Positions 5,802-51,130 are shown, counted from the stretch's first letter. The stretch is 64,000 bases of DNA from Chlorobiota bacterium (GCA_026416585.1 JAOAEV010000008.1:65527-129526); one strand, 5' to 3'. Numbers and translations are program-made. Notes: generated by a model not told the origin, from the sequence alone.

Positions 5802-5833
5802 TGTAGGTGTCGTACGGACGTGTGAAACTGTCT

Positions 5834-19613: not shown

Positions 19614-19697
19614 GGAGGGTTCGCCTAATTGGTATGGCAGCGGTCTTGAAAACCGCCGGGCGATGAGCCTGTGGGGGTTCGAGTCCCCCACCCTCCG
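19614..19697 (+). tRNA. tRNA-Ser (anticodon TGA)
   Basis: Folded by hand. 7-bp acceptor stem GGAGGGT/ACCCTCC, a 3-bp D stem, anticodon stem GCGGT/ACCGC with loop CTTGAAA (anticodon UGA), a 16-nt variable arm, T arm GGGGG-TTCGAGT-CCCCC, discriminator G. CCA is not encoded. Confidence 0.85.
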
Positions 19698-19760
19698 CTG
19701 GACAAGCCTACCCCGATGGGAGACTTGCTATTGGTGTTTCACTATTTTCCCGGTGCCCCA

Positions 19761-20486
19761 ATGAAACGTATCGGATTGCTCTTGGCAGCTGTAGCTGTTG
19801 TGTATTGGCTTGGTGGCTGTAAGTCTGGCACTACATCTCCGAGCGAGACTCCTGACTATATGCCGATGGCAAGCGGCAACTACTGGGTGTATGAACGGTA
19901 CGAGCTTGACTCGAGTGGCCAACAGACTGGATCTGCGGCGTATGACTCTGTCGTGGTCGGAGCAGCTACACAACTTAGCGGGCGGACTGCTTACCCCTTC
20001 TATACCATCTCGAGCGATGGCTCTCGGGACACGACGTACTATTCTCGCGATGCCGATGGCACTGTGTGGCAGTACATGTCGTTTTCTGCCGGTGCAGAAT
20101 ACGGCTTACCAGAACTTTCAGCTCGATGGGTCAAAGTTGCAACGGTGGGAAGCGAAACAAACTGGACAGTTCTCGATACAACAATGACCGTGACTATTCC
20201 GAACGTTCCGGTACCGCTATCTGTACAATTCAAGGTAACCGGATCGAAGGGAGGGACTGAAACCGTTACGCTATCAGGAAAATCGTACACAGTACAGAAT
20301 TTCTCCCAGACCCTGACGATAACGGTTGTTGGAGGGCTCGCGAATGCCAACGCAACACTCAATGCAGGATTTGTTTCTGGAATCGGTCGTGTTAAATCTC
20401 ACAGTACCTGGACTATCACGATAACCGGTTCTCCAACCCAAACCAGCGGATCTGAAGATATGCTTGTCAGATGGCGGATCAAATAA
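19761..20486 (+). CDS. hypothetical lipoprotein
   Basis: Start chosen at MKRIGLLLAAVAVVYWLGGCKS (lipobox), because the longer ORF would overlap the tRNA. Thr/Ser-rich and predicted beta-rich. Confidence 0.5.
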   Translation: MKRIGLLLAAVAVVYWLGGCKSGTTSPSETPDYMPMASGNYWVYERYELDSSGQQTGSAAYDSVVVGAATQLSGRTAYPFYTISSDGSRDTTYYSRDADGTVWQYMSFSAGAEYGLPELSARWVKVATVGSETNWTVLDTTMTVTIPNVPVPLSVQFKVTGSKGGTETVTLSGKSYTVQNFSQTLTITVVGGLANANATLNAGFVSGIGRVKSHSTWTITITGSPTQTSGSEDMLVRWRIK

Positions 20487-25372: not shown

Positions 25373-26710
25373 TTACATCACAAGCTTTGTGAGCGCTTCG
25401 CTTAAGTTATATGCAGTACAAAGCTCGATACCTACACTCTGAATAGGGACAGCAGGTGGAACGACAGCAGAGCTAAATCCCAGTTTCGCTGCTTCGTTGA
25501 GGCGAGTATCCATAGAGGACACTTGTCGCAGTTCCCCCGTAAGACCAACTTCACCGATCGCAACAACTCGTTCTGCAATCGTGCGATTGTGCAGCGCACT
25601 AACAAGAGCTGCACACACTGCAATATCAGCTCCTGGATCTCGCAGTACAAAACCGCCAGCTATATTAACAAATACATCACAACGAATAAAATCCAAACCA
25701 AGTCGCCTTTCCAATACAGCAATAAGCATCTGCAGGCGCTTGTAGTCGAAACCTGTTGTAACTCTCTGCGGCATACCATACCCACTCTGCATCACTAATG
25801 CTTGAATTTCCACGAGTAAAGCTCGACTTCCTTCAATAACCGCAGTTACCGCAGTACCGGGAGCTGGTGTCGCACGGTCACTCAAGAAAAGTGTGCTCGG
25901 ATTGCGTACCTCAGCCAACCCGCATTTGCTCATCTCAAATACACCAATCTCGTTGGTTGAACCGTACCGATTCTTGATTGCCCGCAAGATGCGATATGCA
26001 TAGTTCCCCTCACCCTCGAATTGAATCACCACATCGACCATATGTTCAAGTACCTTCGGTCCTGCCAGCATCCCCTCTTTGGTAACGTGACCGACTAAAA
26101 AGATAGGAATACCTGTTTGTTTGGCGACCTGTACAAGTTGCGCTGCACAATAGCGAACTTGTCCGATGCTACCAGAAAGCGACTCCAATTGACGTCCATA
26201 CATCGTCTGGATAGAATCAATAATCACGATGCCAGGTGCTTGGGATGCGATCGTTGCGGCAATATCTTCAACAGCTTGTTCAGTGAGGACCAAGATACCT
26301 TCTTGCTCAATACCAAGACGTTGAGCACGATAGTGGATTTGCTCGAGAGATTCTTCCCCTGTGATGTAGAGTGGATTGCGTTGTGCAAATCGTGCACATA
26401 GCTGCAGCATCAACGTTGACTTCCCTACACCGGGATCTCCACCTATGACAGTAACTGAACCTGGAACAATACCTCCGCCCATGACCCGATCAAATTCCTC
26501 GATACCACTGCGGAGACGCTCAACCGTTGTCTGAGCAATACTCGTCAGCGGTACTGGCTCCAACGCGCGATGTTCGGTTCGTTTAGTATCATCGCCTCGT
26601 TCGATTTCTTCGACAAGCGCTCCCCATGCACCACAAGAAGGGCACTTACCTAACCACTTGAGTGAGCGATAGCCACACTCCTGGCATACGTACACCGAAC
26701 GTGTTTTCAT
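25373..26710 (-). CDS. radA: DNA repair protein RadA/Sms
   Basis: 445 aa. N-terminal C4 zinc finger (CxxCG...CxxCG), RecA-like Walker A GDPGVGKSTL, KNRYG motif, and Lon-protease-like C-terminus. Confidence 0.93.
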   Translation of the reverse strand: MKTRSVYVCQECGYRSLKWLGKCPSCGAWGALVEEIERGDDTKRTEHRALEPVPLTSIAQTTVERLRSGIEEFDRVMGGGIVPGSVTVIGGDPGVGKSTLMLQLCARFAQRNPLYITGEESLEQIHYRAQRLGIEQEGILVLTEQAVEDIAATIASQAPGIVIIDSIQTMYGRQLESLSGSIGQVRYCAAQLVQVAKQTGIPIFLVGHVTKEGMLAGPKVLEHMVDVVIQFEGEGNYAYRILRAIKNRYGSTNEIGVFEMSKCGLAEVRNPSTLFLSDRATPAPGTAVTAVIEGSRALLVEIQALVMQSGYGMPQRVTTGFDYKRLQMLIAVLERRLGLDFIRCDVFVNIAGGFVLRDPGADIAVCAALVSALHNRTIAERVVAIGEVGLTGELRQVSSMDTRLNEAAKLGFSSAVVPPAVPIQSVGIELCTAYNLSEALTKLVM

Positions 26711-26754: not shown

Positions 26755-27639
26755 TTACGACTGACGAAGCGCCTCAGCACCACCGACAATCTCGAGCATC
26801 TCCTTCGTGATCGCGGCCTGACGAGCTTTGTTATACTCCAATTGGAGTGACGTGATCAAATCACGGGCGTTTGTAGTTGCATTGTCCATTGCAACCATTC
26901 GTGCCGCATGCTCAGCTGCATGCGATTCGAGAAGGGCAGACCATATTTGCAGATTCACATATTGTGGCAGGAGTGCCTCTAAAATTTCTGCCCGAGAAGG
27001 TTCATAGATATAGTCACCTGCATCACGATGTTCTTCCTGATGAGCAGTTTCAATCGGCAGTACTTGTTTGCGTCGCACTTCCTGCCGCAAAATCGAACGG
27101 AACTCATTGTACAGAACGTACACCCGGTCGTATTCTCCGCTAATGAAACCATCCCCTACGCGTGGGGCAATCTGAAGCACAGTGGAAAAATCCAAGCGCC
27201 CGAACACATCAGGGAGGGAAAGCACAAGCCAATCGGAGCGCCGCTGGAAGAATTGTACCGCACGCTTGCCAACAGCGATCACGTGTGTTTTTGCTTTAGG
27301 AAATTCATCAGGTATTCGGCGCTCGATGTAATATTGAGCCGCTTTGAGAATATTCGAATTGAAAGCACCACATAAGCCGCGATCGCTGGCAACAATGATC
27401 AAAAGTACATTCCGCACATCAGGGCGTTCTTCAAAGAACGGGTGAACAAAGCTGTACCGCTCTGCTTGTGCCAGGTTCTGTAGTATCTCAGCAACTTTCG
27501 CTGCATATGGGCGAGCGGCGATAATTGCGTTCTGTGCTTTGCGCAACTTCGCTGCTGCTACCATCCGCATTGCGGAAGTGATTTGCGATGTGCTTTTGAT
27601 TGCTACAATGCGTCTGCGAATGTCGCGAAGTGTCGCCAT
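26755..27639 (-). CDS. atpG: F0F1 ATP synthase subunit gamma
   Basis: Start at MATLRDIRRRI. Gamma-subunit N-terminal (ITSAMRMVAAAKLRKAQ) and C-terminal (ITKEMLEIVGGAEAL) helices. Confidence 0.92.
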   Translation of the reverse strand: MATLRDIRRRIVAIKSTSQITSAMRMVAAAKLRKAQNAIIAARPYAAKVAEILQNLAQAERYSFVHPFFEERPDVRNVLLIIVASDRGLCGAFNSNILKAAQYYIERRIPDEFPKAKTHVIAVGKRAVQFFQRRSDWLVLSLPDVFGRLDFSTVLQIAPRVGDGFISGEYDRVYVLYNEFRSILRQEVRRKQVLPIETAHQEEHRDAGDYIYEPSRAEILEALLPQYVNLQIWSALLESHAAEHAARMVAMDNATTNARDLITSLQLEYNKARQAAITKEMLEIVGGAEALRQS

Positions 27640-27650
27640 GATGGATTCTC

Positions 27651-28637
27651 TTACAAGTATTGCCAGGGACAAACAAGATGATTCCGGACATAATCCTCGA
27701 CAGCATCTTCCAAAGACGTTGTCGGGAGCTGCCAGCCTCGCTGGCGAAACTCTTCTGCCAAGGGTTTCATATCAGCTTGCGTGAAGTTCTGATACTGTCC
27801 ACGCAGCTCTTCCGGCATAGGAATGTATACAATGGATGGTTCACGATCCATTGCAGCGAACACTGCCCGCGCTAAATTATTCCATGACCGTGCAGTGCCG
27901 CTCCCGATGTTGTAGATGCCACGGATTGGTCGCTCTGATCGTTGCGTATAAACAATTTGCCAGACAATCTCCGCAACGTCTTTAACGTACACGAAATCGC
28001 GCTGCTGTTCACCATTGGCATATTCAGGAGATGTGCTTTCAAACAAATGCACTCTCCCTGTTCGTTGAATCTGTCCGAACGATTTAAACACCATACTTGC
28101 CATTACGCCTTTATGATACTCATTCGGACCGAACACATTGAAAAACCGAAGCCCGCATACCTGATCAAGCAGCCCGCGTTCTTCGATCCAGCAATCAAAG
28201 AGATACTTACTCATCGCATATGGGTTGAGCGGGCGCAACTGGTGTGTTTGTCCCACACTCCAACCGTGTTCGCCACTGCCATACACAGATGCACTACTGG
28301 CATAGATGAATGGTATGCCCCGCGAAAGCGCATATTCAGCCAGTCGCACGCTGTAGCGGTAGTTATTGGATGCGAGAAATTCTGCATTCCGTTCGGTTGT
28401 ATCGGTTCGAGCACCAAAATGGATGACCGCTTCAAGATCACCGATCGTATCGTGCTCAATTCCGGAGAGAAATTCCTCTGGCGTTGCGAGGTATCGGAAG
28501 CGCTTACCGATAAGATTTTTCCACTTCGCATTTTCGCCCAACCGGTCAACGACGCACACATCGCTGACACCTGCAGCATTTAGGCGCCATAGCAGGATAC
28601 TTCCGATAAAGCCTGCACCGCCTGTGAGGACTATCAT
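27651..28637 (-). CDS. hldD: ADP-L-glycero-D-manno-heptose-6-epimerase-like NAD-dependent epimerase
   Basis: 328 aa. TGGAGFIGS Rossmann, the YxxxK SDR-e catalytic motif (YAMSKY), and a length and motif pattern matching HldD/RfaD. Confidence 0.7.
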   Translation of the reverse strand: MIVLTGGAGFIGSILLWRLNAAGVSDVCVVDRLGENAKWKNLIGKRFRYLATPEEFLSGIEHDTIGDLEAVIHFGARTDTTERNAEFLASNNYRYSVRLAEYALSRGIPFIYASSASVYGSGEHGWSVGQTHQLRPLNPYAMSKYLFDCWIEERGLLDQVCGLRFFNVFGPNEYHKGVMASMVFKSFGQIQRTGRVHLFESTSPEYANGEQQRDFVYVKDVAEIVWQIVYTQRSERPIRGIYNIGSGTARSWNNLARAVFAAMDREPSIVYIPMPEELRGQYQNFTQADMKPLAEEFRQRGWQLPTTSLEDAVEDYVRNHLVCPWQYL

Positions 28638-30206
28638 TCATCCTGCTGCGACGGTGCGACGGCGAAATCCTTCTACGAATGCCTTGAGCACTGCATCAAG
28701 CTTCTCCTTGATTTCTGGCGTCAGATCTTTTGTTGTTGCGATTGCGTCAAGGAGATCAACATGCGCGGTGTCGAGAAATTCGTAGAGTTCCTGTTCGAAT
28801 GTTTGGAGCGATTCAACAGGCAAATCATCCACATACCCATTCGTCGCGGCATAAATGAGCGCAACTTGTTTTTCGACGGGTACGGGACTGTATTGTTTCT
28901 GCTTCATCAGCTCGACAAGCCGCGCTCCGCGACGGAGCTGCTGTTGTGTTGTTTTATCGAGGTCCGATCCAAACTTGGCAAATGCTTCCAGCGCACGATA
29001 CTGCGCCAGCTCCAGCTTGAGCGGCCCTGCTACCTTTTTCATCGCCTTGATCTGTGCATTACCACCGACCCGCGACACCGAGATTCCAATATTTAGTGCC
29101 GGACGGATTCCTGCATTGAACAAACTTGTCTCGAGATAGATTTGCCCATCGGTAATCGAGATAACGTTCGTCGGGATATAGGCAGACACGTCACCTGCTT
29201 GTGTTTCGATCACGGGTAACGCTGTTAGCGATCCTCCTCCATACCCATCGCTGAGTTTGGCTGCTCGTTCGAGCAAACGACTGTGGAGATAGAATACATC
29301 ACCTGGATAGGCTTCTCGCCCTGGAGGGCGACGCAACAGAAGCGATACCTGACGATATGCCGCCGCTTGTTTCGAAAGATCATCGTACACGATGAGCGCA
29401 TGCCGCCCACTATCGCGGAAATATTCACCCATCGCAGCACCACAGTATGGGGCAATGAATTGCAGAGGTGCTGGATCCGAGGCATTGGCAACCACGACAA
29501 TCGTGTAGTCAAGCGCACCATACTGCTCTAATGTCGCCACAACATTGGCTACCGTCGAGGCTTTCTGACCAATTGCTACGTAAATGCAGTACATTGGTTT
29601 GATTCCACGGCGCGCTGCTTCTTCGGTGTGTGTGTGACGCTGATTGATGATTGTGTCAATCGCAACAGCAGTTTTTCCGGTCTGTCGGTCACCAATGATC
29701 AATTCACGCTGCCCCCGGCCAATGGGAATGAGTGCATCGATTGCTTTGATTCCCGTTTGCAGTGGCTCTTTGACGGGCTGACGATAAACAACACCAACAG
29801 CTTTGCGCTCGATCGGTAGTGCGTGTGGTGTCTCGATTGGACCTTTACCATCGATCGGCACACCGAGTGGATTGACTACGCGCCCAAGCAGTGCTTCGCC
29901 GACTGGCACCGATGCAATGCGACCAGTGCGTCGAACAGTGTCTCCTTCCTTGACCAAACGGTCGTCACCAAAGAGAACCACACCGACGTTATCTTCCTCG
30001 AGATTGAGCGCAATGCCCATGACACCGTTGGGGAATTCGATCAGTTCTGACGCCATGCATCTGGTCAAGCCATAGACACGTGCGACGCCGTCACCGACTT
30101 GTAAAACAGTACCGACTTCTTCGATTTCCGCCTCAAGCTCGAAGCCGGATAGCTGCTTGCGGAGAATTGCCGAAATTTCTTCTGGACGAACTTCAATCAT
30201 TGTCAC
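28638..30206 (-). CDS. atpA: F0F1 ATP synthase subunit alpha
   Basis: 522 aa with Walker A GDRQTGKT and conserved alpha-subunit regions. Confidence 0.95.
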
Positions 30207-30772
30207 GATTCCGGTTGTGTTACATGTCTGCCATTGGCGAAGAGAAGTTGCTCACGGAGCCGCTGAAGCTGACCAACTAGACTTGCGTCCAGTCGTACAT
30301 CATTGCATTCGACAATTAGCCCACCGAGAATCGCCGGCTCGATACGATAGTGAATTTGCGGTGTGCCTCCGAATCGTGTTGCCACAAGCGATTCGATGCG
30401 GGGGTAAATATCGGCAGGTAGCTCTACCGCCGATACCACACGAGCACGAACTATGCCGACGTATTGGTCATACAGTGTAATGAATTGCTCGGCGATTTGA
30501 TCAAGCACGTTTTCACGTCCTTTAGTACAGACCAGCTGCAGGAACGCTCGAAAGAGAGGATGCGTCTGCTCGCCAAAAATCGCGTCGAGTACCGCCTTTT
30601 TGCGCTCGGCTGCGATAACAGGATTCCGCAACAGTGCGCGCAGTGGTGCCGATGCTCCCAATGCAATGTGGAATAACTCGACCGATTGCATGACCTGGTC
30701 GAGTGCACCGGCATTGAGTGCTGCATCGAGCAGCGATTGTGCATAACGTTTTGCGACACGGGCGTTTCGCAT
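30203..30772 (-). CDS. atpH: F0F1 ATP synthase subunit delta (OSCP)
   Basis: Start at [15 protein letters not shown], the typical delta N-terminus. The ORF-track start at 30931 would overlap atpF. Confidence 0.8.
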
Positions 30773-30785
30773 CGGGTACCTCGTG

Positions 30786-31283
30786 TCAATTTGCTCGTTC
30801 CAGTTGCGCCAGCGACTGTTCGACGAGTCGCCGGTGCTGCTCACTATCGAGCTGCTGTGCAAGCAATCTCTGCGCTGCTTGGAGAGCAAGCTCTGCAACT
30901 TCGCCTCGAAGCGCAGCGCGTGCGTCGGCAATCATGCGTTCGATTTCGCGCTCAGCTTCGCGGAGCTTCTCCTGCTTGACAAGCTCTCCTTCCTCGGCAG
31001 CCTTTGTGACGATGCGTTCAGCTTGTTGTCGGGCATTGCGCAGCAGTTCAACCATTTCCGCGTGTGCACGTTTACGCTGCTCTTCAGCGTCGGCAAGCAG
31101 GCGCTGCGCCTCGGAACGAGCATGTTCTGCTGCGCGCAGAGACTCAGCGATTGTCTGTTCGCGACGTTCGAGTGCCACACGAAGCGGTTTATACCCGAAT
31201 TTGGCGAGGATAAACAGGTACAAACTAAAGTTGACGAGCGTCCAGATTATCAACCCTGGACTTATCTGCAGCAATCCTTCCAT
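30786..31283 (-). CDS. atpF: F0F1 ATP synthase subunit b
   Basis: 165 aa with a single N-terminal TM helix and a long charged coiled-coil. Confidence 0.85.
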   Translation of the reverse strand: MEGLLQISPGLIIWTLVNFSLYLFILAKFGYKPLRVALERREQTIAESLRAAEHARSEAQRLLADAEEQRKRAHAEMVELLRNARQQAERIVTKAAEEGELVKQEKLREAEREIERMIADARAALRGEVAELALQAAQRLLAQQLDSEQHRRLVEQSLAQLERAN

Positions 31284-31337
31284 TACGCACCGAAAAAGTA
31301 GTGGAGACTTGGTACTGCGGCTGTGAGAGCCTTAGGA

Positions 31338-31568
31338 TTATCCCTTCAGCGCAAGGAAAATACAGACGACCAATGCAAAGAGCGCAACCCCTTCGATCAA
31401 GGCTGCACCGATGATCATTGTCGTTCGGACGTCACCTGCTGCTTCGGGTTGGCGTGCACCAGCTTCCAACGCTGCGGCTGCCAACCGCCCAATTCCATTA
31501 CCGACACCCAACACAGTGATACCGCAACCGATACCAGCTGCCAACCACGCAAGACCATAACCGTCCAT
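31338..31568 (-). CDS. atpE: F0F1 ATP synthase subunit c
   Basis: 76 aa two-helix hairpin with a GxGxGxG helix and the conserved carboxylate Glu (ALIEGVALF). Confidence 0.92.
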   Translation of the reverse strand: MDGYGLAWLAAGIGCGITVLGVGNGIGRLAAAALEAGARQPEAAGDVRTTMIIGAALIEGVALFALVVCIFLALKG

Positions 31569-31598
31569 CGAAACAACTCCGAAAAAAGTTCAACAAAC

Positions 31599-32597
31599 TT
31601 AGAGCGATACTGCTGTGTGATGTTCATCATGGTCATGCGCATGGTCACCCAGCGCCAAACCGACGAACACCGCTGTCAGCACAGTGAATATGTATGCCTG
31701 CAAAAAGCAGACGAGCGTTTCCAACAGGTAAATAAAAATCGAGAAGCCCACAGACATTGGGGCAACGAATATCGAACGGAAGTAGAAAATCAACCCAATG
31801 AGCGAAAGCAAAATAATGTGCCCCGCCGACATGTTTGCGAACAAACGAACCGTCAGCGCAAACGGTTTTGTGAACAGACCCAAAATTTCGATCGGTACCA
31901 TGATTGGTGCCAAGTATGCCGGTGCACCACCGAGTAAGTGATGGAGCCACCCGTTGATACCAATCTCGCGTATCGCCAAGCCATTGATCACCACAAATGC
32001 CGTTATCGCCAGTGCTGCTGTCGTTCCGATAGCGCCTGTCGCCGTGTGCATTCCTGGCAATAACCCAAGAAGATTCAGTACTAAAATGAACAGGAATAGC
32101 CCGACAAAATATGGCATAAATTGCCGTACCAGCCGTTCAGACCGGAGGTTCGGTCGAACAACTTCGTCGCGTATGTACACAACGATTGCCTCCAATGCAT
32201 TTTGCAGTCCACGTGGTGGCATAAGCGGATCACGCCGATATCGCCGCCCCGCTACAAAAAAGAGCGCAAGAACGATAAGCATTCCGATCCACTGGAAAAC
32301 AACAAGGTTTGTCACCGATAAGTCAAGAGCTGGCGATGCACCATCAGTTGCACGAACAATATGCCCCTTGCTAATGCGGTATTCCCCCTCTTGCTCCATC
32401 GCATGGGCATTGCGATAAAAGTGCCACCTGCCGCCATCATAGAGCACAACAGGTAGCACGTCCGATGTCGTAAATGCAATGTTCAACTCATGATGATCGC
32501 CCAGTTCCTGCAGCAGGTGCGGAATAACCTGGCCCGGAGGTATTTCCTCCGCGTGTGCATGCTGTGTTGCCAACGTGTCAGTTGCAGTCGAACTCAT
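31599..32597 (-). CDS. atpB: F0F1 ATP synthase subunit a
   Basis: 332 aa polytopic protein with the conserved Arg region (LTVRLFANMSAGH). Confidence 0.9.
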   Translation of the reverse strand: MSSTATDTLATQHAHAEEIPPGQVIPHLLQELGDHHELNIAFTTSDVLPVVLYDGGRWHFYRNAHAMEQEGEYRISKGHIVRATDGASPALDLSVTNLVVFQWIGMLIVLALFFVAGRRYRRDPLMPPRGLQNALEAIVVYIRDEVVRPNLRSERLVRQFMPYFVGLFLFILVLNLLGLLPGMHTATGAIGTTAALAITAFVVINGLAIREIGINGWLHHLLGGAPAYLAPIMVPIEILGLFTKPFALTVRLFANMSAGHIILLSLIGLIFYFRSIFVAPMSVGFSIFIYLLETLVCFLQAYIFTVLTAVFVGLALGDHAHDHDEHHTAVSL

Positions 32598-32600
32598 GCG

Positions 32601-32927
32601 TTACCACGTAGTAAAAGGAACTCGTTGACGCCGATAGCGGCGACGCCGACGCAACGGTGTTTTAGCGTTTTCGTGACGTGCGTGCAAAAAAAAAGCCTCG
32701 ACGATCACCATCACGAAAAATGAAACCATGAGCGCCAATGCTAACGCTAGTTTGTGCAAATCGAAGATTGTGACAACAGCCGCGATAATGATGACCATCA
32801 TCACCAGACGCAAAGCCATCGCCGTCAGCACAAGCGATGTCGCGCGATTAACCGGCAAATGTTGTGCTCTGCGTGCCACAAGTAATCCAGCTGCGATATT
32901 GGCGAGGCTAAGCAGGATGCCCACCAT
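32601..32927 (-). CDS. putative ATP synthase protein I-like small membrane protein
   Basis: Internal Met start (MVGILLSLANI...) chosen to avoid overlapping atpZ. Two or three TM helices, immediately upstream of atpB. Confidence 0.45.
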   Translation of the reverse strand: MVGILLSLANIAAGLLVARRAQHLPVNRATSLVLTAMALRLVMMVIIIAAVVTIFDLHKLALALALMVSFFVMVIVEAFFLHARHENAKTPLRRRRRYRRQRVPFTTW

Positions 32928-32956
32928 AGCGCTGAGCAGTATATGCGACGTCGTGC

Positions 32957-33325
32957 TCAATGCCCTGCCGCCGAATTGTCCGACTTCTGCCGCAACTGTT
33001 GTCGGTCTAGCCGTGCGATAGTTCGTATAAACTGTACAATCGCAGCGACAACACCAAACACAAACCCAATGATGGTCCACACTGGACGCATCTCAGTTGC
33101 ACGATCGAGGAACCAACCGAGCCCTCCACCAGCAAGCACTGTCACTGCAAGCTCGACGCCAAGTGTCGCAAGCGGCGCGAGTTGACGGAGGGCAGTATGA
33201 GTCGGTGTCCGCAGCAGTCGGTTGGTCACAGGCATGCGCTCAAAGAACCTTGTTACAATTTGCAAAAATATGGTACTGACAGCCGATGCAACCATGCGAA
33301 CCGAATGTTCAGAGCAACGGGTCAT
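32957..33325 (-). CDS. atpZ: AtpZ/AtpI-family putative F0F1-ATPase accessory subunit
   Basis: 122 aa, two TM helices, with a GGGLGWFLD motif characteristic of the AtpZ family, which is annotated as 'ATPase gene 1'. Confidence 0.6.
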   Translation of the reverse strand: MTRCSEHSVRMVASAVSTIFLQIVTRFFERMPVTNRLLRTPTHTALRQLAPLATLGVELAVTVLAGGGLGWFLDRATEMRPVWTIIGFVFGVVAAIVQFIRTIARLDRQQLRQKSDNSAAGH

Positions 33326-33329
33326 CGTC

Positions 33330-34064
33330 TTAGGTCCTTTCTCCCAACACTCGCATGGGACGGAGCATCACCAGACGCTGGAGTTGAAACCGCTTCACAG
33401 CATAACGCTCCAAGTGTTCTTTCATCGCTTCGACTGAGTCGGTCACGAGCACCAGTTGACGGTCAGTTGGTGAGATAGTTCCTTCCTCGGTCATTTGAGT
33501 AAGCAATGCCTCGACAGGAGCCCAATAATTGGTATCCATCAGCACTATTGGGAAACGCTCGATTTTCCCTGTCTGAATAAGGGTGAGTGCTTCGAACAAT
33601 TCATCAAGCGTACCGATCCCTCCAGGCAGAACAACGAAGCCGTATGAGTACTTGACGAGCAACACTTTTCGCACGAAAAAGTAGCGCACTGTGATCCACC
33701 GATCCAAATAGGCGTTCGGCTGTTGCTCGTGGGGTAGCTCGATATTGCAGCCGATCGAACGTCCACCGGTTTCACGCGCACCACGATTGGCTGCTTCCAT
33801 TAGCCCCGGACCACCACCAGTCATGACGGTAAAACCCATTTCAGCGATCTGGCGACCGACGCGGAGCGCCATGTCGTAGTAGGGATGATTTTCACCGATT
33901 CGCGCAGAGCCAAACACTGTGATACACGGCCCGACGAAATGTAGCGATCGGAAACCACGAAGGAATTCCCATGCAACACGCATGACAAAACGCAGCTCCT
34001 CCCACCGTCCATGTGGACCGGTCAGCGCGTAGCGCTCATCGGTATGCAATAGTCGAATACTCAT
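33330..34064 (-). CDS. LOG-family cytokinin riboside 5'-monophosphate phosphoribohydrolase-like protein
   Basis: 244 aa with the LOG/TIGR00730 motifs (VFGSAR, GGGPGLMEA, PGGIGTLDE). Confidence 0.8.
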   Translation of the reverse strand: MSIRLLHTDERYALTGPHGRWEELRFVMRVAWEFLRGFRSLHFVGPCITVFGSARIGENHPYYDMALRVGRQIAEMGFTVMTGGGPGLMEAANRGARETGGRSIGCNIELPHEQQPNAYLDRWITVRYFFVRKVLLVKYSYGFVVLPGGIGTLDELFEALTLIQTGKIERFPIVLMDTNYWAPVEALLTQMTEEGTISPTDRQLVLVTDSVEAMKEHLERYAVKRFQLQRLVMLRPMRVLGERT

Positions 34065-34067
34065 TGG

Positions 34068-35414
34068 CTAATACCCACGGAGTCGCAATTGTCGGATAAT
34101 ACGATCGGCATAAACGTACTCAACATTGCCGAATACTTCACTCTCCGGCAGCACAATCAACTCACCTTCCGTTGCAATAACACTGGGATCGTACGCAGTA
34201 TTGGATAGGACTGTTGCTTCTTCTGGACGAAATTCGTTATCGACATCGGTAATGGTAACAATTGCACCTATATGTTTCGTACTGCGGTCCATCGGCATCA
34301 AATCGCTCGAGAGCATTAGCCATGGAATGCGCAGACGAACTATATAGCCATGCTGCTGACGCATAGCATGAATAGCGACATCTGCGAATGCTTTCATACG
34401 CAGCCGGGTCAACATGCTACTATCGTTGACGAGCAGTATTGCTCTCGGTAGCTGCTGTTGAAAATTACCAAAATGAATGCTCAAACCGACCAGTGGTGCA
34501 TCTGAACGTCTCCGTATCGTAATGCCGCGTTTTTCTCGTCGTACAGCAATGCTCGGTAGCGTCGAATCCGACACAAACAAATCAAACCATAACTCTAACC
34601 GATCTGACGGACACGTGTCACAGTATGCAATAACGACTTCATCGTCTCGCACTGCAACAGTTAGATACAAATAACTTGTGTCATACACTCCCGCTAACGT
34701 CATTGAGCAATCATCTGGACCACTCCAGTAGTATGCACCGCGCTGGACATAATCAACACTTGCCACATGAGCTCTCCGCTGATAACCATGCCCCGGAATT
34801 ACACCACGGGGATAGATGGGTACAAGACTACATTTTCGCTCAAGCACCGGATTACCGCTGAGTGTCGTTGTCCACTGCTCCCGTATTTCGAGTCCTGCAT
34901 AGCTGAGAGTTTGATCAAGTGTGTAGCTGCCAAGCCGTCGCGTCCGATATTCAGTGGCTGTCACCAGTGCGATACCATCGAAACGATACCCGGTTATTCT
35001 CCAGTTGAATTGCTGTAACTTCTCCGTGATGTAGCATATTCCATAGCGTATGACAACACCGACTTCCAGTGGAAGCTCAACAAAGCGGTATTCTTTCGTG
35101 GCAATGTGGGTCAAATAACCGTCCACGTCCACGAACAAATAAACCCATAAGCGCTTCCCTTTTTCAGCACGATGACGCACAACGCACGCCAAATCGTAAT
35201 TTCCATCACCGGAGAAATCCCCCGCATCCCATGAGTAGAACGTTGTGCCACGGGCATCTGAAAACACCGTATCGAGGTCACTAATAAGTTCCCGATCGAA
35301 GTATAACTCGAGTTTTCGATAGAATTCATCACGTGTCATGCCGGACTGCGCCAGAGACAAAGTTGTCAGCATGACACCAATGACGAGCGCAGCAAGCGTC
35401 TTACAGTGCCTCAT
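34068..35414 (-). CDS. hypothetical secreted protein
   Basis: Internal Met start (MRHCKTLAALVIGVMLTTLSLAQSG) with a signal peptide. The longer form would overlap the upstream GNAT gene by 167 bp. No recognisable domain. Confidence 0.45.
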   Translation of the reverse strand: MRHCKTLAALVIGVMLTTLSLAQSGMTRDEFYRKLELYFDRELISDLDTVFSDARGTTFYSWDAGDFSGDGNYDLACVVRHRAEKGKRLWVYLFVDVDGYLTHIATKEYRFVELPLEVGVVIRYGICYITEKLQQFNWRITGYRFDGIALVTATEYRTRRLGSYTLDQTLSYAGLEIREQWTTTLSGNPVLERKCSLVPIYPRGVIPGHGYQRRAHVASVDYVQRGAYYWSGPDDCSMTLAGVYDTSYLYLTVAVRDDEVVIAYCDTCPSDRLELWFDLFVSDSTLPSIAVRREKRGITIRRRSDAPLVGLSIHFGNFQQQLPRAILLVNDSSMLTRLRMKAFADVAIHAMRQQHGYIVRLRIPWLMLSSDLMPMDRSTKHIGAIVTITDVDNEFRPEEATVLSNTAYDPSVIATEGELIVLPESEVFGNVEYVYADRIIRQLRLRGY

Positions 35415-35892
35415 TAGCAAGCCGGGCAAATTCGACGTCATCGAGGCGGTAGAGCTGCCATTGGGATAAACACCGAGCACCGAGTGCGCGATAGAAGCTA
35501 TGAGCTGCTTCGTTCCAATCGAGAACGAGCCATTCCATGCGCCCACAACCGCGCTCCATCGCAACACACGCCAGGTATTGCATTAGTGCACGTCCGACAC
35601 CTTGTCCGCGCCACTGTGGTAGGACGAAGATGTCCTCTAAAAATAGCGTTGATGCCGCACGAAACGACGAGTATGTTTCAAAGAATATGCAGTAGCCACA
35701 TAAGGCATCGCCCAGATAAGCTAGGAGCGCACTGTACCGTGGTGGGCTGTGCTCGAAGCAATCACGGAAAAGTCGCTGATGAGCATCATGGTCAGGTGGC
35801 ACAAGCCGTTCGTATTCTGCCAGTGCACAGATGAGCTGAAAGAAATCATCGAAGCGCTCTGGAGTCAGTGGTGCGATCCGAACAGCGTTCAT
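35401..35892 (-). CDS. GNAT-family N-acetyltransferase
   Basis: 163 aa with the acetyl-CoA binding motif (QWRGQGVGRALM). Confidence 0.8.
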   Translation of the reverse strand: MNAVRIAPLTPERFDDFFQLICALAEYERLVPPDHDAHQRLFRDCFEHSPPRYSALLAYLGDALCGYCIFFETYSSFRAASTLFLEDIFVLPQWRGQGVGRALMQYLACVAMERGCGRMEWLVLDWNEAAHSFYRALGARCLSQWQLYRLDDVEFARLANEAL

Positions 35893-37652: not shown

Positions 37653-38600
37653 TCAAACAGAACAATTCACCAATTGCTGGCGAAAATAGTCTGCTGTTCG
37701 CCGCAACCCTTCTGTCCGAGACACTCGAGGCTCCCAACCAAGCAACTGCTGCGCCCGCGAAATATCTGGCTGGCGAATCTTAGGATCATCTTCAGGCAGT
37801 GGGTGAAATTCGATTGGGCTTGAAGAACCGACAAGTTCTCGGATTTCTTCAGCCAACTGTAGTACGGAGATCTCATCCGGATTGCCGAGATTGACTGGTT
37901 CAACAGCGTCTGACTCGAGCAAGCGAACAATACCTTCAACCATATCGCTGATGTAGCATATCGAGCGTGTTTGCAAACCATCACCAAATACTGTCAGTGG
38001 TTCGCCACGCAATGCCTGTGTCATGAACGCGGGGATCATCCGTCCATCATTAAGCCGCATTCGCTCGCCATAAGTGTTGAAAATTCGCGCGATGCGGGTA
38101 TCGAGCCCATGATAGCGGTGATAAGCCATCGTCATCGCTTCGGCAAAGCGTTTGGCTTCATCGTACACGCCACGAACACCGACAGGATTGACATTGCCCC
38201 AGTAGCTTTCCGGTTGAGGGTGGACCAAAGGATCGCCATATACTTCGCTTGTGCTTGCCAGTAAAAATCGCGCGCCCTTTGCTTTGGCGAATCCCAGTGC
38301 TTTATGCGTGCCCAGCGAACCCACCTTCAACGTTTGTATCGGATATCGTAAATAGTCCATCGGCGATGCTGGCGAGGCAAAATGCAGTACATAGTCAACC
38401 GGACCTTCTACGTAAATGAAGTTAGTTACATCATGGCAGATAAAACGAAAGTGCGGAGTACCAACAAGGTGCGCGATATTGTCGGGCGAGCCAGTGATGA
38501 GATTATCCAGGCAAATAACTTCATCACCACGGCCGACGAAATAGTCGCACAGATGCGATCCGACAAAACCTGCGCCACCTGTAATGACGATGCGTGCCAT
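37653..38600 (-). CDS. UDP-glucuronate decarboxylase (UDP-xylose synthase)-like NAD-dependent epimerase/dehydratase
   Basis: 315 aa. [11 protein letters not shown], the YDEAKR catalytic motif, and a length and motif pattern matching UXS/ArnA-decarboxylase-like SDRs. Confidence 0.75.
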
Positions 38601-48417: not shown

Positions 48418-50381
48418 TATCGTGTAACAGCAAGTGGCGTAACATAGAGCCGCCCACGAATGCGAGCACGTACATAGTACGTACCCGACGCCAATTGCTC
48501 TGTTGAAAATACCGAAATCTGCGATGGTGGGATGGTCGCCACCACGGCACCATGCACATCGTAAATGCGGATCGATTCGTCAGGCACCAGAGCCAGCACA
48601 ATCCAAACTGTGCTGGTGGCTGGGATCGGCCGAATATTGATTGCATCCTCATTATCGGTCAGCTCGACATTACTCACCATCGGCACCGATGCCAACGACA
48701 CAAGAGAACGCACCGAACGCCCAATATTCAGCGCGATCGACGTGAATGCACCGAGCGAATCGAACTCAATGGTCATCTCCTTTGCGGTGTTTATGACTGT
48801 GCGATGATTAGTATCGCTGCGCCCAATAAAACTCAACTCGAGCGGCAACGTGGTGTATACACCGAGAGAGTCCGCCTGAATTTGACGGATATGAACAGTA
48901 GCTTTCCATCCATGCTGGGATGGGGTACGGAGTGCTTCAATCGCCAGCACAGGCCATCCTTTCCCACGAATCCACTCATCGAAGAATCGCCGCACAAAAT
49001 CCTCGCGTCCACTCATTGCAGCAAGTGTGCGCACCAGTGTGTCAATCGTGACGTTGCCATAGCGGAACCGCTCCAATAGATGCCGACACCATACAAAAAA
49101 CACACTATCGCCGATAGCCCATCGGAGCATACCGAGTACTGCTGCACCCTTTTCATAAATCACGTGCGGATAATTCGACGACGGCGGGGTACGGTCAAAA
49201 TCATACATCGGCAGGATGCCTTCAAACATCGGGTTGCCAGGCTTGGCATATTGATTCAAGTAATTACTGATCTTGCGCTGCTGTTCGTTGAGATACGCAG
49301 CAAAGCCACTCAGTTGCTCGCGCCAGAGCGATTCACAGAACGTCGCAAAGCTTTCGTTGAACCACGCGTCCCGGAAATCCAACGGCGTAACGCAATCACC
49401 AAACCATTGATGCGCCAACTCATGCGCGGCGATCAAATTGATCGAGTCTGTCGTGCGAGCCAGTGAAGCTGGATATGAAATCATTGTCTGATGTTCCATT
49501 GCGCCCTTTTGCGTCATCACGTACCCGACCTTCTCGAACGGGTACTTCCCGAACCGAGCCTCGAAGGCACGCACCATCTGTGGGAGTAGCCGAAAGTTTC
49601 GAACAGTTGCAGTTGAATCAGTTCGGCGAGCATACACCACAATTGGTACATCAAGAGCTGAACGATCGTTGATGACACTCACTACAGATGCCGGTAGTGC
49701 CGCAAATGTCAGTAGATACGTCGCCGTTGGAATGTCTGAATGAAAACGATATATCCGCCATCCAAGGCTATCAATTGGGGGCAGCTCTATCCCTCCCGAT
49801 GCAACAACATACGACACCGGCACACGGAAAGCAAGAGAGAAACTGGCTTTGTCCGATGGATGATCGTAGCACGCGAGCCAATGTTGAGTAGCCGATACGT
49901 AATTATTGTAGAACCCTACACCGAGCGCGTACACGATGTTTCCCTCGCGCTGAACACCGCCCCATGAGTAGCCGCTATACGGTGGCTCGCCGGTCATCGT
50001 CCCTCGGTATGTAATGCGCAGCAGGACGGTATCGCCCACGTGGTGCGTCGGTAGTGCTGGTACGGCGTAGTGATATGTTGCATCGGTGGGTGTACCGCGA
50101 GCGAACCATTCGACAGGTATTGCCCTGCCAAACTGCACATACTCGACGCGAACAACCTCTAAACCGCGCAGATGGAAACGCAGCGTATCCGGTGCTCGAC
50201 GCCACCGAACACGCCAGCTACACATGCTTTCTCCAAGAACTGGTAGAGGAAGAGAGTCGAGCGCAATAAAAGCATCGTAGTGAAGCACATCGAACGACTG
50301 CTCGATAAACTGTGTCGGCGACGAAATCTCTTGTGCAAGCGCAAGCGTACCCGCAAAACACGCGATAATGGCAGCTTTCAT
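48417..50381 (-). CDS. pepN: M1-family aminopeptidase N with C-terminal T9SS sorting domain
   Basis: Start at MKAAIIACFAGTLALAQE (signal peptide). HEXXH-(18)-E zinc site (HELAHQWFGD...NESFAT). The C-terminal roughly 80 aa (SGTYYVRARI...) resemble the Por/T9SS C-terminal domain. Confidence 0.8.
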   Translation of the reverse strand: MKAAIIACFAGTLALAQEISSPTQFIEQSFDVLHYDAFIALDSLPLPVLGESMCSWRVRWRRAPDTLRFHLRGLEVVRVEYVQFGRAIPVEWFARGTPTDATYHYAVPALPTHHVGDTVLLRITYRGTMTGEPPYSGYSWGGVQREGNIVYALGVGFYNNYVSATQHWLACYDHPSDKASFSLAFRVPVSYVVASGGIELPPIDSLGWRIYRFHSDIPTATYLLTFAALPASVVSVINDRSALDVPIVVYARRTDSTATVRNFRLLPQMVRAFEARFGKYPFEKVGYVMTQKGAMEHQTMISYPASLARTTDSINLIAAHELAHQWFGDCVTPLDFRDAWFNESFATFCESLWREQLSGFAAYLNEQQRKISNYLNQYAKPGNPMFEGILPMYDFDRTPPSSNYPHVIYEKGAAVLGMLRWAIGDSVFFVWCRHLLERFRYGNVTIDTLVRTLAAMSGREDFVRRFFDEWIRGKGWPVLAIEALRTPSQHGWKATVHIRQIQADSLGVYTTLPLELSFIGRSDTNHRTVINTAKEMTIEFDSLGAFTSIALNIGRSVRSLVSLASVPMVSNVELTDNEDAINIRPIPATSTVWIVLALVPDESIRIYDVHGAVVATIPPSQISVFSTEQLASGTYYVRARIRGRLYVTPLAVTR

Positions 50382-51130
50382 CGTTTCAGTGGTAAGGGAA
50401 CATATGATACCCACTGTGCAAAATACTGCATCCAGTAGCGGCGACATACGATACCATCAAATGCAAGCAAAAGACCCCCGATTAGTGTGGCGACCTCAAT
50501 CCCACTACGCCATGCGATCACAGTGAAAAATGCAATGATCGCCACACCAACTATGTGTGAGGCTGCATGATTGGAGCCATACGGATTCAATGGTACAGCC
50601 GCAAGAAAACTGACACCCAACCAACCGATGAAATTCAACAGCGGCACTCCATAATAGATGCCGTTTTGTTCCCAAACCCACAACCGCATCGGTCCGATCG
50701 CGACAGGATCGATGAGCAAATCAAACATCGTCATGGCGAGCGCGATAATGACCCGTGCACGCCAAGCGTGTTGCGTGATTGTCATCGCCAGCGTCCATGC
50801 ATATGAAAGTAGTACCAGCCATGCTGCAACCATGACAATGGGGACCCCTGCAATCGCTGGTCCCAGCGTTTCGGTGTAGTGATAGCGCCCAAACGGAATA
50901 CCGATAGCTACCCCGACGATTTCACTGATGAGACCGATAGCCGCACCAAGAGCAAGCCGTGCTCCAAGCGGATGTTGATACACCACAATCACCGCCGCTG
51001 CAACCCAGAGAAACAGCATTTCTCCATAGCGTCGGAGTACGGCAAGGTCACTATCGGCAGCAGTGGTAAGACTACCGCCAATCAGAAGAACAGCAAATAG
51101 TGTAGCAAGTATTCTACGAATCCATTTCAT
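50378..51130 (-). CDS. cruF: carotenoid 1,2-hydratase CruF-family membrane protein (Pfam 'carotenoid biosynthesis protein')
   Basis: 250 aa with 6-7 TM helices, the GIPFGRYHYT and DLLIDPVA motifs that I recall as characteristic of the CruF/Caroten_synth family, and a location inside a crt cluster. Confidence 0.6.
   Translation of the reverse strand: MKWIRRILATLFAVLLIGGSLTTAADSDLAVLRRYGEMLFLWVAAAVIVVYQHPLGARLALGAAIGLISEIVGVAIGIPFGRYHYTETLGPAIAGVPIVMVAAWLVLLSYAWTLAMTITQHAWRARVIIALAMTMFDLLIDPVAIGPMRLWVWEQNGIYYGVPLLNFIGWLGVSFLAAVPLNPYGSNHAASHIVGVAIIAFFTVIAWRSGIEVATLIGGLLLAFDGIVCRRYWMQYFAQWVSYVPLPLKR

What the first reader, a model, noticed from the sequence alone, without database searches (positions are those of the whole stretch)
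26755..33325. ADP-heptose epimerase (hldD-like) inserted inside the F-type ATP synthase operon; atpD/atpC absent
The operon order is atpZ, an atpI-like gene, atpB-E-F-H-A, then a 328-aa HldD/RfaD-like epimerase, then atpG (12-bp gap). It continues into radA. No beta or epsilon subunit genes follow, so they must lie elsewhere, as happens in some Chlorobi and Bacteroidetes. A heptose-pathway gene sitting between the alpha and gamma subunits with tight spacing implies co-expression of LPS-core synthesis with the ATP synthase. It is an architecture worth comparing across relatives.
Basis: seen in the sequence. Interest (0 to 1): 0.5.

Follow-up and report, generated by a model that had tools for sequence, protein, structure and literature searches.

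The report
Heptose epimerase gene inside ATP-synthase operon
A normal cell-envelope sugar enzyme gene (hldD) sits between the alpha and gamma subunit genes of the ATP synthase operon. This odd gene order is real and shared by the whole Kapabacteria lineage, but it looks like an old passenger insertion, not a new kind of system.

Summary
On the minus strand the order is atpZ, atpI-like, atpB, atpE, atpF, atpH, atpA, hldD, atpG, then radA. There is 0 nt between atpA and hldD and 11 nt between hldD and atpG.

The 328-aa protein is a true HldD. It scores 353 bits on TIGR02197 (cut-off 274.6), its best solved relatives are all HldD, and its catalytic residues are kept.

No beta or epsilon gene lies in the 64-kb window. 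That split is already known for Chlorobi and Bacteroidetes. In the relative Ca. Thermonerobacter, beta and epsilon sit on another scaffold.

The window matches a "Chlorobi bacterium" MAG of the Kapabacteria (OPB56) lineage. The atpA-hldD-atpG order recurs in 10 further independent loci plus a published MAG. HldD identity there is about 50-70% and AtpG identity 43-86%, and the flanking genes differ. These operons form one clade in an AtpA tree (bootstrap 87/100). The nearest outgroup and about 60 other FCB-type operons have atpA next to atpG.

The best reading is a single ancient insertion that is co-transcribed as a passenger. No evidence links heptose synthesis functionally to the ATP synthase. 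I found no earlier description. Interest is low to moderate: it is a clade-marking operon variant.

The parts
32957..33235 (-). atpZ (AtpZ/AtpR-type small membrane protein, PF09527). The longest ORF starts at 33325. The ATG at 33235 gives 92 aa, as in relatives.
   Evidence: PF09527 scores 53.1 bits against a cut-off of 26.6. Relatives are 73-106 aa. The sequence was read.
32601..32960 (-). atpI-like small membrane protein. The likely TTG start overlaps the atpZ stop as TTGA.
   Evidence: Only weak matches: PF03899 at 20.1 bits (cut-off 25.1) and NF053722 at 20.6 bits (cut-off 40). An ORF of 95-119 aa holds the same position in relatives. The junction was read.
31599..32597 (-). atpB, Fo subunit a
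   Evidence: TIGR01131 scores 144.4 bits against 102.6. PF00119 scores 192 bits.
31338..31568 (-). atpE, Fo subunit c
   Evidence: TIGR01260 scores 50.2 bits against 43.95. PF00137 scores 59.8 bits.
30786..31283 (-). atpF, Fo subunit b
   Evidence: TIGR01144 scores 86.1 bits against 65.5.
30203..30772 (-). atpH, F1 subunit delta. The start is taken at the ATG that gives 189 aa.
   Evidence: TIGR01145 scores 101.4 bits against 57.5. PF00213 covers residues 59-229 of the long ORF. Relatives are 181-198 aa.
28638..30200 (-). atpA, F1 subunit alpha (520 aa from the ATG at 30200)
   Evidence: TIGR00962 scores 829.8 bits against 484. The start was read.
27651..28637 (-). hldD (rfaD/gmhD), ADP-L-glycero-D-manno-heptose 6-epimerase, 328 aa. 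Its ATG directly follows the atpA stop codon.
   Evidence: TIGR02197 scores 353.4 bits against 274.6. The best PDB hits are 1eq2, 2x6t, 4ej0 and 3sxp, all HldD. GGAGFIGS, S115, Y140, K144 and K176 are conserved. The junction was read.
26755..27639 (-). atpG, F1 subunit gamma (294 aa), 11 nt after the hldD stop
   Evidence: TIGR01146 scores 323.9 bits against 194.45. The start is fixed by the alignment. The junction was read.
33263..33270 (-). TATTTTTG, a match to the Bacteroidetes-type -7 promoter motif TAnnTTTG. It lies in the 94-nt gap upstream of atpZ and is a candidate operon promoter (inference only).
   Evidence: There are 11 such motifs on the minus strand of the whole 64-kb window.
25373..26710 (-). 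radA, same strand, 44 nt downstream of atpG. Read-through is possible here, but it is not a conserved part of the unit.
   Evidence: TIGR00416 scores 550.7 bits. The spacer has no terminator-like fold, z = +0.74. Downstream genes differ in other clade members.

Best explanation
**What it is.** The 328-aa gene is a genuine ADP-L-glycero-D-manno-heptose 6-epimerase (HldD). It is the last enzyme of ADP-L,D-heptose synthesis for the lipopolysaccharide inner core.

**How it got there (inferred).** It was inserted once, between atpA and atpG, in the common ancestor of the Kapabacteria (OPB56) lineage, and it has been inherited vertically since.

**How it is expressed (inferred).**
- It has no promoter space of its own in most lineages.
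- It is therefore transcribed as a passenger on the atpZ-I-B-E-F-H-A-hldD-G messenger, from a promoter upstream of atpZ.
- It is probably translationally coupled to atpA, through a TGAATG junction here and an ATGA overlap in relatives.
- atpG is then translated 6-28 nt after hldD ends.
- The result is constitutive, housekeeping-level expression of hldD.

**Why it stays (inferred).**
- The arrangement probably persists because moving either hldD or atpG out would need a new promoter.
- I do not think it persists because heptose synthesis and ATP synthesis interact.

**Beta and epsilon.** They are encoded elsewhere, as is usual in this superphylum.

**Shown:** gene identities, order, spacing, clade-wide conservation, and absence of the insertion from outgroups.
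**Inferred:** single insertion, co-transcription, translational coupling, and the neutral passenger status.
For: **Identity**
- TIGR02197 scores above its trusted cut-off.
- The top four PDB hits are all HldD.
- The Rossmann motif, Ser/Tyr/Lys and the second Lys are conserved across 15 homologues.

**Conservation**
- The atpA-hldD-atpG order is the same in NICIL-2, Ca. Kapaibacterium, Naka2016, ChocPot_Mid, GCA_016720145 and HGW-Ignavibacteriae-1.
- It is also the same in four metagenome contigs, L088, L089, L090 and L105.
- It is the same again in the Mushroom Spring Ca. Thermonerobacter MAG, scaffold 1000002, genes 3-9.
- HldD identity falls to about 50% and AtpG identity to 43%, and the flanking genes differ.

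**One clade**
- The hldD-bearing operons are monophyletic in an AtpA neighbour-joining tree (87/100 bootstraps).
- L091, which has atpA and atpG adjacent, is their sister.
- The embedded HldDs also form one clade with a similar internal topology.

**Absent elsewhere**
- 79 of 80 other HldD loci have no atp gene within reach. These include Ignavibacteriaceae, Melioribacteraceae, Stygiobacter and Chlorobium.
- About 60 other atpG loci have atpA and atpG 3-160 nt apart.

**Co-transcription**
- The atpA-to-hldD gaps are 0, 1, -4, 8, -4, 46, 55, 9, -4 and -4 nt. The hldD-to-atpG gaps are 11, 21, 9, 9, 9, 59, 56, 28, 6 and 8 nt.
- No promoter-like or terminator-like site lies at the junctions.
- GC and GC3 match the neighbouring genes.
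- Thiel et al. 2019, Table S1, places the epimerase in the same night-time transcript cluster as atpG, atpD and atpC.

**Passenger reading**
- In Chlorobium, hldD is a lone gene beside hisC and phoH. In Stygiobacter it sits beside metH.
- So in this superphylum hldD is not tied to an LPS gene cluster.
Against: - No transcript data exist for this organism.
- The published cluster assignment is coarse. Cluster D holds 706 genes. It also separates hldD and atpG ("weak evening") from atpB, E, F, H and A ("strong evening"). That could mean attenuation, processing or a separate start after atpA.
- Two lineages, L086 and L087, have spacers of 46-59 nt that could hold their own promoters.
- Monophyly of the embedded HldDs has only 38/100 bootstrap support.
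- Retention for this long, on both sides of a split with about 43% AtpG identity, is also what selection for the arrangement would produce. Neutrality is assumed, not shown.
- Enzyme activity is untested, and so is the presence of heptose in Kapabacteria LPS.
Confidence: 0.72

Rival explanations
1. **Adaptive coupling.** The position of hldD is selected for. Either it ties supply of an envelope precursor to the expression of the energy-conserving machinery, or it acts as a spacer that lowers atpG output relative to atpA (the alpha to gamma ratio is 3:1).
For: - The order is retained across a deep clade although both flanks were reshuffled.
- In Ca. Thermonerobacter the genes before hldD fall in the "strong evening" cluster. 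hldD and atpG fall in the "weak evening" cluster together with atpD and atpC. This fits a step-down in message level after atpA.
Against: - No other heptose-pathway or LPS gene is linked to the operon.
- All other FCB-type operons sampled manage the alpha/gamma ratio with the two genes adjacent.
- The transcript clusters are coarse categories, not measured ratios.
- I know of no biochemical link between HldD and F1Fo.
Confidence: 0.15
2. **Independent expression.** hldD, or hldD together with atpG, is transcribed from an internal promoter within the 3' end of atpA or in the spacer. On this view the adjacency does not mean co-regulation with the upstream atp genes.
For: - Spacers of 46-59 nt in L086 and L087 are AT-rich, and L087's contains a TATAAT.
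- hldD/atpG and atpBEFHA fall in different diel clusters in a relative.
Against: - In the window and in 7 of the 9 other loci measured the atpA/hldD gap is -4 to 9 nt.
- No sigma-70-like or TAnnTTTG motif lies upstream of hldD inside atpA on the minus strand.
- These consensus scans may not fit Kapabacteria promoters.
Confidence: 0.1
3. **Different substrate.** The protein is an SDR epimerase or dehydratase that acts on another nucleotide sugar, for example for a capsule or an S-layer glycan, and is not the LPS-core HldD.
For: - The narrower enterobacterial model NF008360 is not reached (238.5 bits against a cut-off of 452).
- No biochemical data exist.
- GmhA was not found in the published gene table of a relative.
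Against: - The TIGR02197 equivalog is passed by 79 bits. The next-best family, GalE, scores 78 bits against a cut-off of 262.
- The four best PDB matches are HldD.
- The HldD-specific second catalytic Lys (HKG) is invariant.
- A relative is annotated with the two halves of HldE, a GmhB-type phosphatase and several ADP-heptose:LPS heptosyltransferases.
Confidence: 0.04
4. **Artefact.** The arrangement comes from MAG assembly or binning.
For: The window matches a metagenome-assembled genome.
Against: - The same order is found in at least 11 independent assemblies from different samples. These include contigs of 1.1 Mb and 2.16 Mb.
- The junctions are in frame and tight.
- Base composition is uniform across the operon.
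Confidence: 0.005

Closest known systems
HldD (RfaD/GmhD) of E. coli and other Proteobacteria; structures 1EQ2, 2X6T, 4EJ0, 3SXP
   Same: It has the same enzyme family and fold class (extended SDR). The NADP-binding motif GGAGFIGS, the Ser/Tyr/Lys residues and the second catalytic Lys are shared. E = 2e-61 to 1EQ2 over the full length.
   Different: In enterobacteria hldD heads the hldD-waaF-waaC LPS-core operon (my own knowledge). Here it lies inside the atp operon with no LPS gene next to it. The protein is 328 aa, not 310, and has two short insertions.
Split F1Fo loci of Chlorobi, Bacteroidetes and cyanobacteria (Koumandou and Kossida 2014, PMC4154653)
   Same: The locus is split at the gamma/beta junction. 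The block I-a-c-b-delta-alpha-gamma is together and beta-epsilon is elsewhere. Most FCB-type loci sampled here also lack atpD after atpG.
   Different: That survey describes splits and occasional hypothetical intervening ORFs. It does not describe a conserved enzyme gene between alpha and gamma, and it sampled no Kapabacteria.
Stand-alone hldD of Ignavibacteriales and Chlorobium
   Same: The enzyme is orthologous, at 42-48% identity. These are the nearest named relatives outside the clade.
   Different: There hldD lies beside unrelated housekeeping genes: hisC and phoH in Chlorobium, metH in Stygiobacter. No atp gene lies within 10 kb.
N-ATPase (alternate F1Fo, atpDCQRBEFAG)
   Same: It also carries a PF09527-type small gene (AtpR/AtpZ family).
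   Different: This locus has a delta subunit and the standard order. Its subunits score well below the alt_F1F0 cut-offs, for example TIGR03323 at 97.6 bits against 282. It is therefore not an N-ATPase.

Membership tests
HldD, ADP-glyceromanno-heptose 6-epimerase (TIGR02197) | Full-length score at or above the curated equivalog cut-off | tested here: met
   It scores 353.4 bits against a cut-off of 274.6, covering residues 2-319 of 328. The next family, GalE, scores 77.9 bits against 262.
HldD, ADP-glyceromanno-heptose 6-epimerase (TIGR02197) | N-terminal Rossmann dinucleotide-binding motif GxxGxxG | tested here: met
   The motif is TGGAGFIGS at residues 5-13. It is invariant in 15 homologues.
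HldD, ADP-glyceromanno-heptose 6-epimerase (TIGR02197) | Catalytic Ser, the Tyr-x3-Lys motif, and the second base Lys (E. coli S116, Y140, K144, K178) | tested here: met
   S115, Y140, K144 and K176 (HKG) align to the E. coli residues. They are invariant in alignment A1.
HldD, ADP-glyceromanno-heptose 6-epimerase (TIGR02197) | Epimerisation of ADP-D-glycero-D-manno-heptose at C6'' | not testable with these tools
   This needs an enzyme assay or complementation of an hldD mutant.
HldD, ADP-glyceromanno-heptose 6-epimerase (TIGR02197) | The rest of the ADP-heptose pathway and heptosyltransferases in the same genome | tested here: inconclusive
   Only 64 kb is available. A GmhB-like phosphatase at 1516-2055 scores below the GmhB cut-offs (125.9 bits against 178). 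In the relative Ca. Thermonerobacter the published table lists two COG2870 (HldE) genes, one COG0241 gene and several COG0859 heptosyltransferases, but no COG0279 (GmhA).
Bacterial F1Fo ATP synthase operon | Genes for subunits a, c, b, delta, alpha and gamma, each above the curated cut-off | tested here: met
   TIGR01131, TIGR01260, TIGR01144, TIGR01145, TIGR00962 and TIGR01146 all score above their cut-offs.
Bacterial F1Fo ATP synthase operon | Beta and epsilon genes following gamma in the same locus (canonical order) | tested here: not met
   No beta Walker-A motif is in the window. tblastn with AtpD and AtpC finds only the alpha paralogue. This is the known split form of Chlorobi and Bacteroidetes. 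In a clade member beta and epsilon are on another scaffold.
Bacterial F1Fo ATP synthase operon | AtpI (PF03899) upstream of subunit a | tested here: inconclusive
   It scores 20.1 bits against a cut-off of 25.1, E = 8.7e-4. The position is conserved in relatives.
N-ATPase (alternate F1Fo) | Subunits reach the alt_F1F0 model cut-offs, there is no delta subunit, and the order is atpDCQRBEFAG | tested here: not met
   TIGR03323 scores 97.6 bits against 282, TIGR03324 scores 624.9 against 750.5, and TIGR03306 scores 104 against 302. A delta subunit is present.
LPS-core (waa/rfa) gene cluster | hldD adjacent to heptosyltransferase genes (waaF, waaC) | tested here: not met
   The neighbours are atpA and atpG. 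No family-9 glycosyltransferase was found among 47 window ORFs scanned.

The most novel reading that the evidence does not exclude
The hldD insertion is functional, not neutral. It could act as a built-in attenuator or spacer that sets gamma (and hldD) output below alpha output. It could instead couple synthesis of an envelope precursor to the cell's energy-conserving capacity. In the extreme case HldD would associate with F1 during assembly. On this reading, selection on the arrangement itself explains its retention throughout Kapabacteria.
Probability: 0.07. Interest if true: 0.6.

Novelty: new variant of a known kind. Interest (0 to 1): 0.27.

Why it matters
- **Clade marker.** The insertion is a rare genomic change that marks a whole deep lineage. 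It could serve as a simple synteny marker for Kapabacteria (OPB56). Several MAGs now labelled "Chlorobi", "Ignavibacteria" or "Ignavibacteriae" carry it, and they group with named Kapabacteria in the AtpA tree.
- **Operon evolution.** One of the most conserved bacterial operons can permanently absorb an unrelated housekeeping gene.
- **A natural test case.** It could show how an inserted cistron affects the subunit stoichiometry of a molecular machine.
- **Limits.** It does not reveal a new enzyme, pathway or mechanism.

Tried and rejected
- **Locating this MAG's own contig.** An exact-sequence look-up found nothing on record, even though a 100%-identical NCBI protein exists. I therefore could not check atpD/atpC in this genome.
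- **Genome-collection scan with an HldD alignment.** Only one locus of the clade, L001, came back.
- **Literature on hldD or rfaD inside an atp operon.** Four searches found nothing relevant. The NICIL-2 genome paper (Hiras et al. 2016) is not held.
- **A second heptose gene beside the operon.** The PfkB kinase upstream of the operon in Naka2016 is ribokinase-like, not HldE (TIGR02198 at 45 bits against a cut-off of 345).
- **Promoter and terminator scans.** The sigma-70 and intrinsic-terminator scan found no more sites than shuffled sequence, and none at the junctions. The two-part Bacteroidetes-type pattern gave one chance-level match outside the operon.
- **Terminator between atpG and radA.** The spacer folds no better than shuffled sequence.
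- **RNA genes.** Rfam and tRNA scans found nothing in the operon.
- **Searches not run.** I considered a database search with AtpD to find the beta gene of NICIL-2. I did not run it, because the 120 best hits would be relatives of whatever query was used, not Kapabacteria.
- **Readings rejected.** N-ATPase and assembly artefact were both considered and rejected.

Full report
**1. What is in the sequence**

ORF listing and profile searches show a tight co-directional gene row on the minus strand of 26755-33325.

- atpZ: PF09527, 53 bits against a cut-off of 26.6.
- A small atpI-like membrane ORF. It has only sub-threshold matches: PF03899 at 20.1 bits against 25.1 and NF053722 at 20.6 bits against 40.
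- atpB, atpE, atpF, atpH and atpA. All score above the NCBIfam equivalog cut-offs.
- A 328-aa SDR protein.
- atpG: TIGR01146, 323.9 bits against 194.45.
- radA follows after 44 nt.

I refined several starts by reading the sequence and aligning to relatives.

- atpG starts at the ATG at 27639.
- atpA starts at the ATG at 30200.
- atpI-like starts at the TTG at 32960, which overlaps the atpZ stop.
- atpZ most likely starts at 33235.

The inter-cistronic gaps after these start refinements, from atpZ onward, are:

| Junction | Gap (nt) |
|---|---|
| atpZ to atpI-like | -4 |
| atpI-like to atpB | 3 |
| atpB to atpE | 30 |
| atpE to atpF | 54 |
| atpF to atpH | 13 |
| atpH to atpA | 2 |
| atpA to hldD | 0 |
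| hldD to atpG | 11 |

A 94-nt gap lies upstream of atpZ. It contains TATTTTTG, which matches the Bacteroidetes-type -7 element TAnnTTTG. GC and GC3 of the inserted gene match its neighbours.

**2. Is the inserted gene HldD?**

Yes, as far as sequence can tell.

- It passes the TIGR02197 equivalog model at 353.4 bits against a cut-off of 274.6. The next-best family, GalE, scores 78 bits against 262.
- The four best matches among solved structures are all ADP-L-glycero-D-manno-heptose 6-epimerases: 1EQ2 (E = 2e-61), 2X6T, 4EJ0 and 3SXP.
- The dinucleotide-binding motif GGAGFIGS is present.
- The residues that align to E. coli S116, Y140, K144 and K178 are present. They are invariant across 15 homologues.
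- NCBI annotates the 100%-identical protein as ADP-glyceromanno-heptose 6-epimerase from a "Chlorobi bacterium" MAG.

**3. Are beta and epsilon absent?**

They are absent from the window.

- No GGAGVGKT motif occurs in any frame.
- tblastn with a genuine AtpD and AtpC, taken from locus L129, finds only the alpha paralogue.

This split is ordinary. Koumandou and Kossida 2014 report the locus split at the gamma/beta junction in Chlorobi, Bacteroidetes and cyanobacteria (PMC4154653). Most FCB-type loci sampled here also lack atpD after atpG.

I could not check the rest of this genome. In the clade member Ca. Thermonerobacter thiotrophicus, the published gene table lists beta and epsilon as adjacent genes on scaffold 1000116. 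Gamma to a are genes 3-9 of scaffold 1000002 (PMC6338057, Table S1).

**4. Synteny in relatives**

The same atpA-hldD-atpG order is present in every locus below.

| Locus or genome | HldD identity |
|---|---|
| Chlorobi bacterium NICIL-2 | 70% |
| Ca. Kapaibacterium sp. GCA_026003475 | 68% |
| Naka2016 (Ca. Thermonerobacter) | 54% |
| ChocPot_Mid | 52% |
| "Ignavibacteria bacterium" GCA_016720145 | 53% |
| HGW-Ignavibacteriae-1 | 51% |
| Metagenome contigs L088, L089, L090, L105 | 49-52% |
| Mushroom Spring MAG (gene 4 of scaffold 1000002, "nucleoside-diphosphate-sugar epimerase", between gamma and alpha) | not measured |

The genes flanking the operon differ outside the NICIL-2 subgroup. radA is replaced downstream by an RRM protein, QueG or PspC.

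The insertion is absent everywhere else I looked.

- 79 of 80 HldD loci from other bacteria have no atp gene within reach. These include Ignavibacteriaceae, Melioribacteraceae, Stygiobacter and Chlorobium.
- About 60 other atpG loci have atpA and atpG 3-160 nt apart.
- In Chlorobium and Stygiobacter, hldD is a lone gene beside hisC/phoH and metH respectively.

**5. One event or many?**

- In a neighbour-joining tree of 68 AtpA sequences, the eleven hldD-bearing operons form one clade. It is recovered in 87 of 100 bootstraps.
- L091 is their sister. It has a 99-nt atpA-atpG spacer, no hldD, and no atpD downstream.
- In an HldD tree of 83 sequences the embedded copies are again one clade. The sub-groupings are similar: L085+L105, L086+L001, L087+L088, and L083+(L081+window).
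- Bootstrap support for that HldD clade is only 38/100.

The simplest reading is one insertion in the ancestor of Kapabacteria followed by vertical descent.

**6. Expression**

Ten loci were measured; L088 was not matched by the start-pattern search.

- The atpA-to-hldD gaps are 0, 1, -4, 8, -4, 46, 55, 9, -4 and -4 nt.
- The hldD-to-atpG gaps are 11, 21, 9, 9, 9, 59, 56, 28, 6 and 8 nt.

Eight of the ten leave no room for a separate promoter. They suggest translational coupling through TGAATG or ATGA junctions.

Consensus scans give no promoter-like or terminator-like site at the junctions. These consensus patterns may not describe Kapabacteria promoters.

The only transcript evidence found is categorical. 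In the diel metatranscriptome of Ca. Thermonerobacter, the epimerase, atpG, atpD and atpC are in Cluster D ("weak evening"). atpA, atpH, atpF, atpE and atpB are in Cluster E ("strong evening").

Both clusters are night-time patterns, which fits co-expression. The difference between them leaves room for a step-down in message after atpA, or for an internal start.

**7. Interpretation**

The best-supported account is a bona fide hldD that became a permanent passenger in the atp operon of one lineage. It gains constitutive expression from the operon promoter.

Nothing links the rest of heptose or LPS-core synthesis to this locus.

- The only other candidate pathway gene in the window is a GmhB-like phosphatase at 1516-2055. 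It lies 25 kb away and scores below the GmhB cut-offs.
- A PfkB kinase next to the operon in Naka2016 is ribokinase-like, not HldE.

An adaptive role cannot be excluded, given the long retention and the transcript-cluster difference. Such a role could be tuning the alpha/gamma ratio or coupling the envelope to energy status. There is no positive evidence for it.

**8. Novelty**

The enzyme, the operon and the gamma/beta split are all known. The gene is already correctly annotated in public records.

I found no description of the conserved placement of hldD between atpA and atpG. The arrangement appears to be a synapomorphy of Kapabacteria (OPB56). I rate it a new variant of a known kind, of modest interest.

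Noticed in passing
window 34068-35567 (-); also L001 3900-5219, L081 3178-4512, L083 3241-4587, L085 1119-2459, L086 574-1881: An uncharacterised protein of about 435-500 aa lies just upstream of the atp operon in six clade members. It has no Pfam or NCBIfam family, only a faint CBM9 hit on record. Identity between the window and Naka2016 is 33% (E = 2e-93). It is as deeply conserved a neighbour as the hldD insertion. It is absent upstream in L087.
   Followed up: partly
window 1516-2055 (-): A HAD-IIIA phosphatase of 179 aa sits next to ruvB. Its best matches are GmhB models (NF006506 at 125.9 bits against 178, TIGR00213 at 113 bits against 149.6), both below cut-off. It is a possible second ADP-heptose pathway gene, 25 kb from hldD.
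   Followed up: partly
PMC6338057 Table S1 (Ca. Thermonerobacter thiotrophicus, scaffold 1000002, genes 3-9): Within one apparent operon, atpB, E, F, H and A are classed as "strong evening". The epimerase and atpG are classed as "weak evening", together with the unlinked atpD and atpC. This hints at a change in message level after atpA.
   Followed up: partly
L091 (metagenome contig Ga0164241_10000197) 3367-5879: This is the nearest operon without the insertion. AtpA is 76% and AtpG 52% identical to the window's. The atpA-atpG spacer is 99 nt and no atpD lies downstream. It is a useful empty-site comparator, but its taxon is unknown.
   Followed up: partly
L112, L129, L143, L147 (and L137): In the AtpA tree these loci form the group next to Kapabacteria plus L091. 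In L112, L129, L143 and L147 atpD follows atpG directly. The gamma/beta split may therefore have arisen more than once in this superphylum, or the tree may be unreliable at this depth.
   Followed up: no
L001 (HGW-Ignavibacteriae-1), L087 (GCA_016720145, 'Ignavibacteria bacterium'), L081/L082 (NICIL-2, 'Chlorobi bacterium'): MAGs deposited under Ignavibacteria or Chlorobi names carry the insertion. They group with named Kapabacteria (Ca. Kapaibacterium, Ca. Thermonerobacter) in the AtpA tree, so their labels look outdated.
   Followed up: partly
window 33330-34064 (-): A LOG/TIGR00730-family gene lies between the conserved unknown protein and atpZ. This is seen only in the NICIL-2 subgroup (window, L081, L083).
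   Followed up: no
window 50378-56922 (-): This looks like a carotenoid gene cluster. It holds phytoene/squalene synthase, two CrtI-type desaturases, an alpha/beta hydrolase, a family-2 glycosyltransferase and a Caroten_synth (PF04240) protein. The content suggests a glycosylated or acylated carotenoid.
   Followed up: no
window 3130-6556 (-): A succinate dehydrogenase / fumarate reductase operon is present. It has a b558-type cytochrome subunit (TIGR02046), a flavoprotein and an iron-sulfur subunit.
   Followed up: no
window 19614-19698 (+): This is the only RNA gene in the window, tRNA-Ser(TGA). It overlaps the start of the mechanical ORF 19671-20486, whose true start must lie further downstream.
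   Followed up: no
window 31594-31601 (-): A second TAnnTTTG motif overlaps the end of atpB, about 26 nt upstream of atpE. It could be an internal promoter for the abundant c subunit, or a chance match.
   Followed up: no
window 37653-38600 (-): A second extended-SDR gene of 315 aa is present. It is dTDP-glucose dehydratase / GalE-like, below all equivalog cut-offs, and is not an HldD paralogue (TIGR02197 at 54.7 bits). It holds the same position in NICIL-2 and Ca. Kapaibacterium.
   Followed up: no
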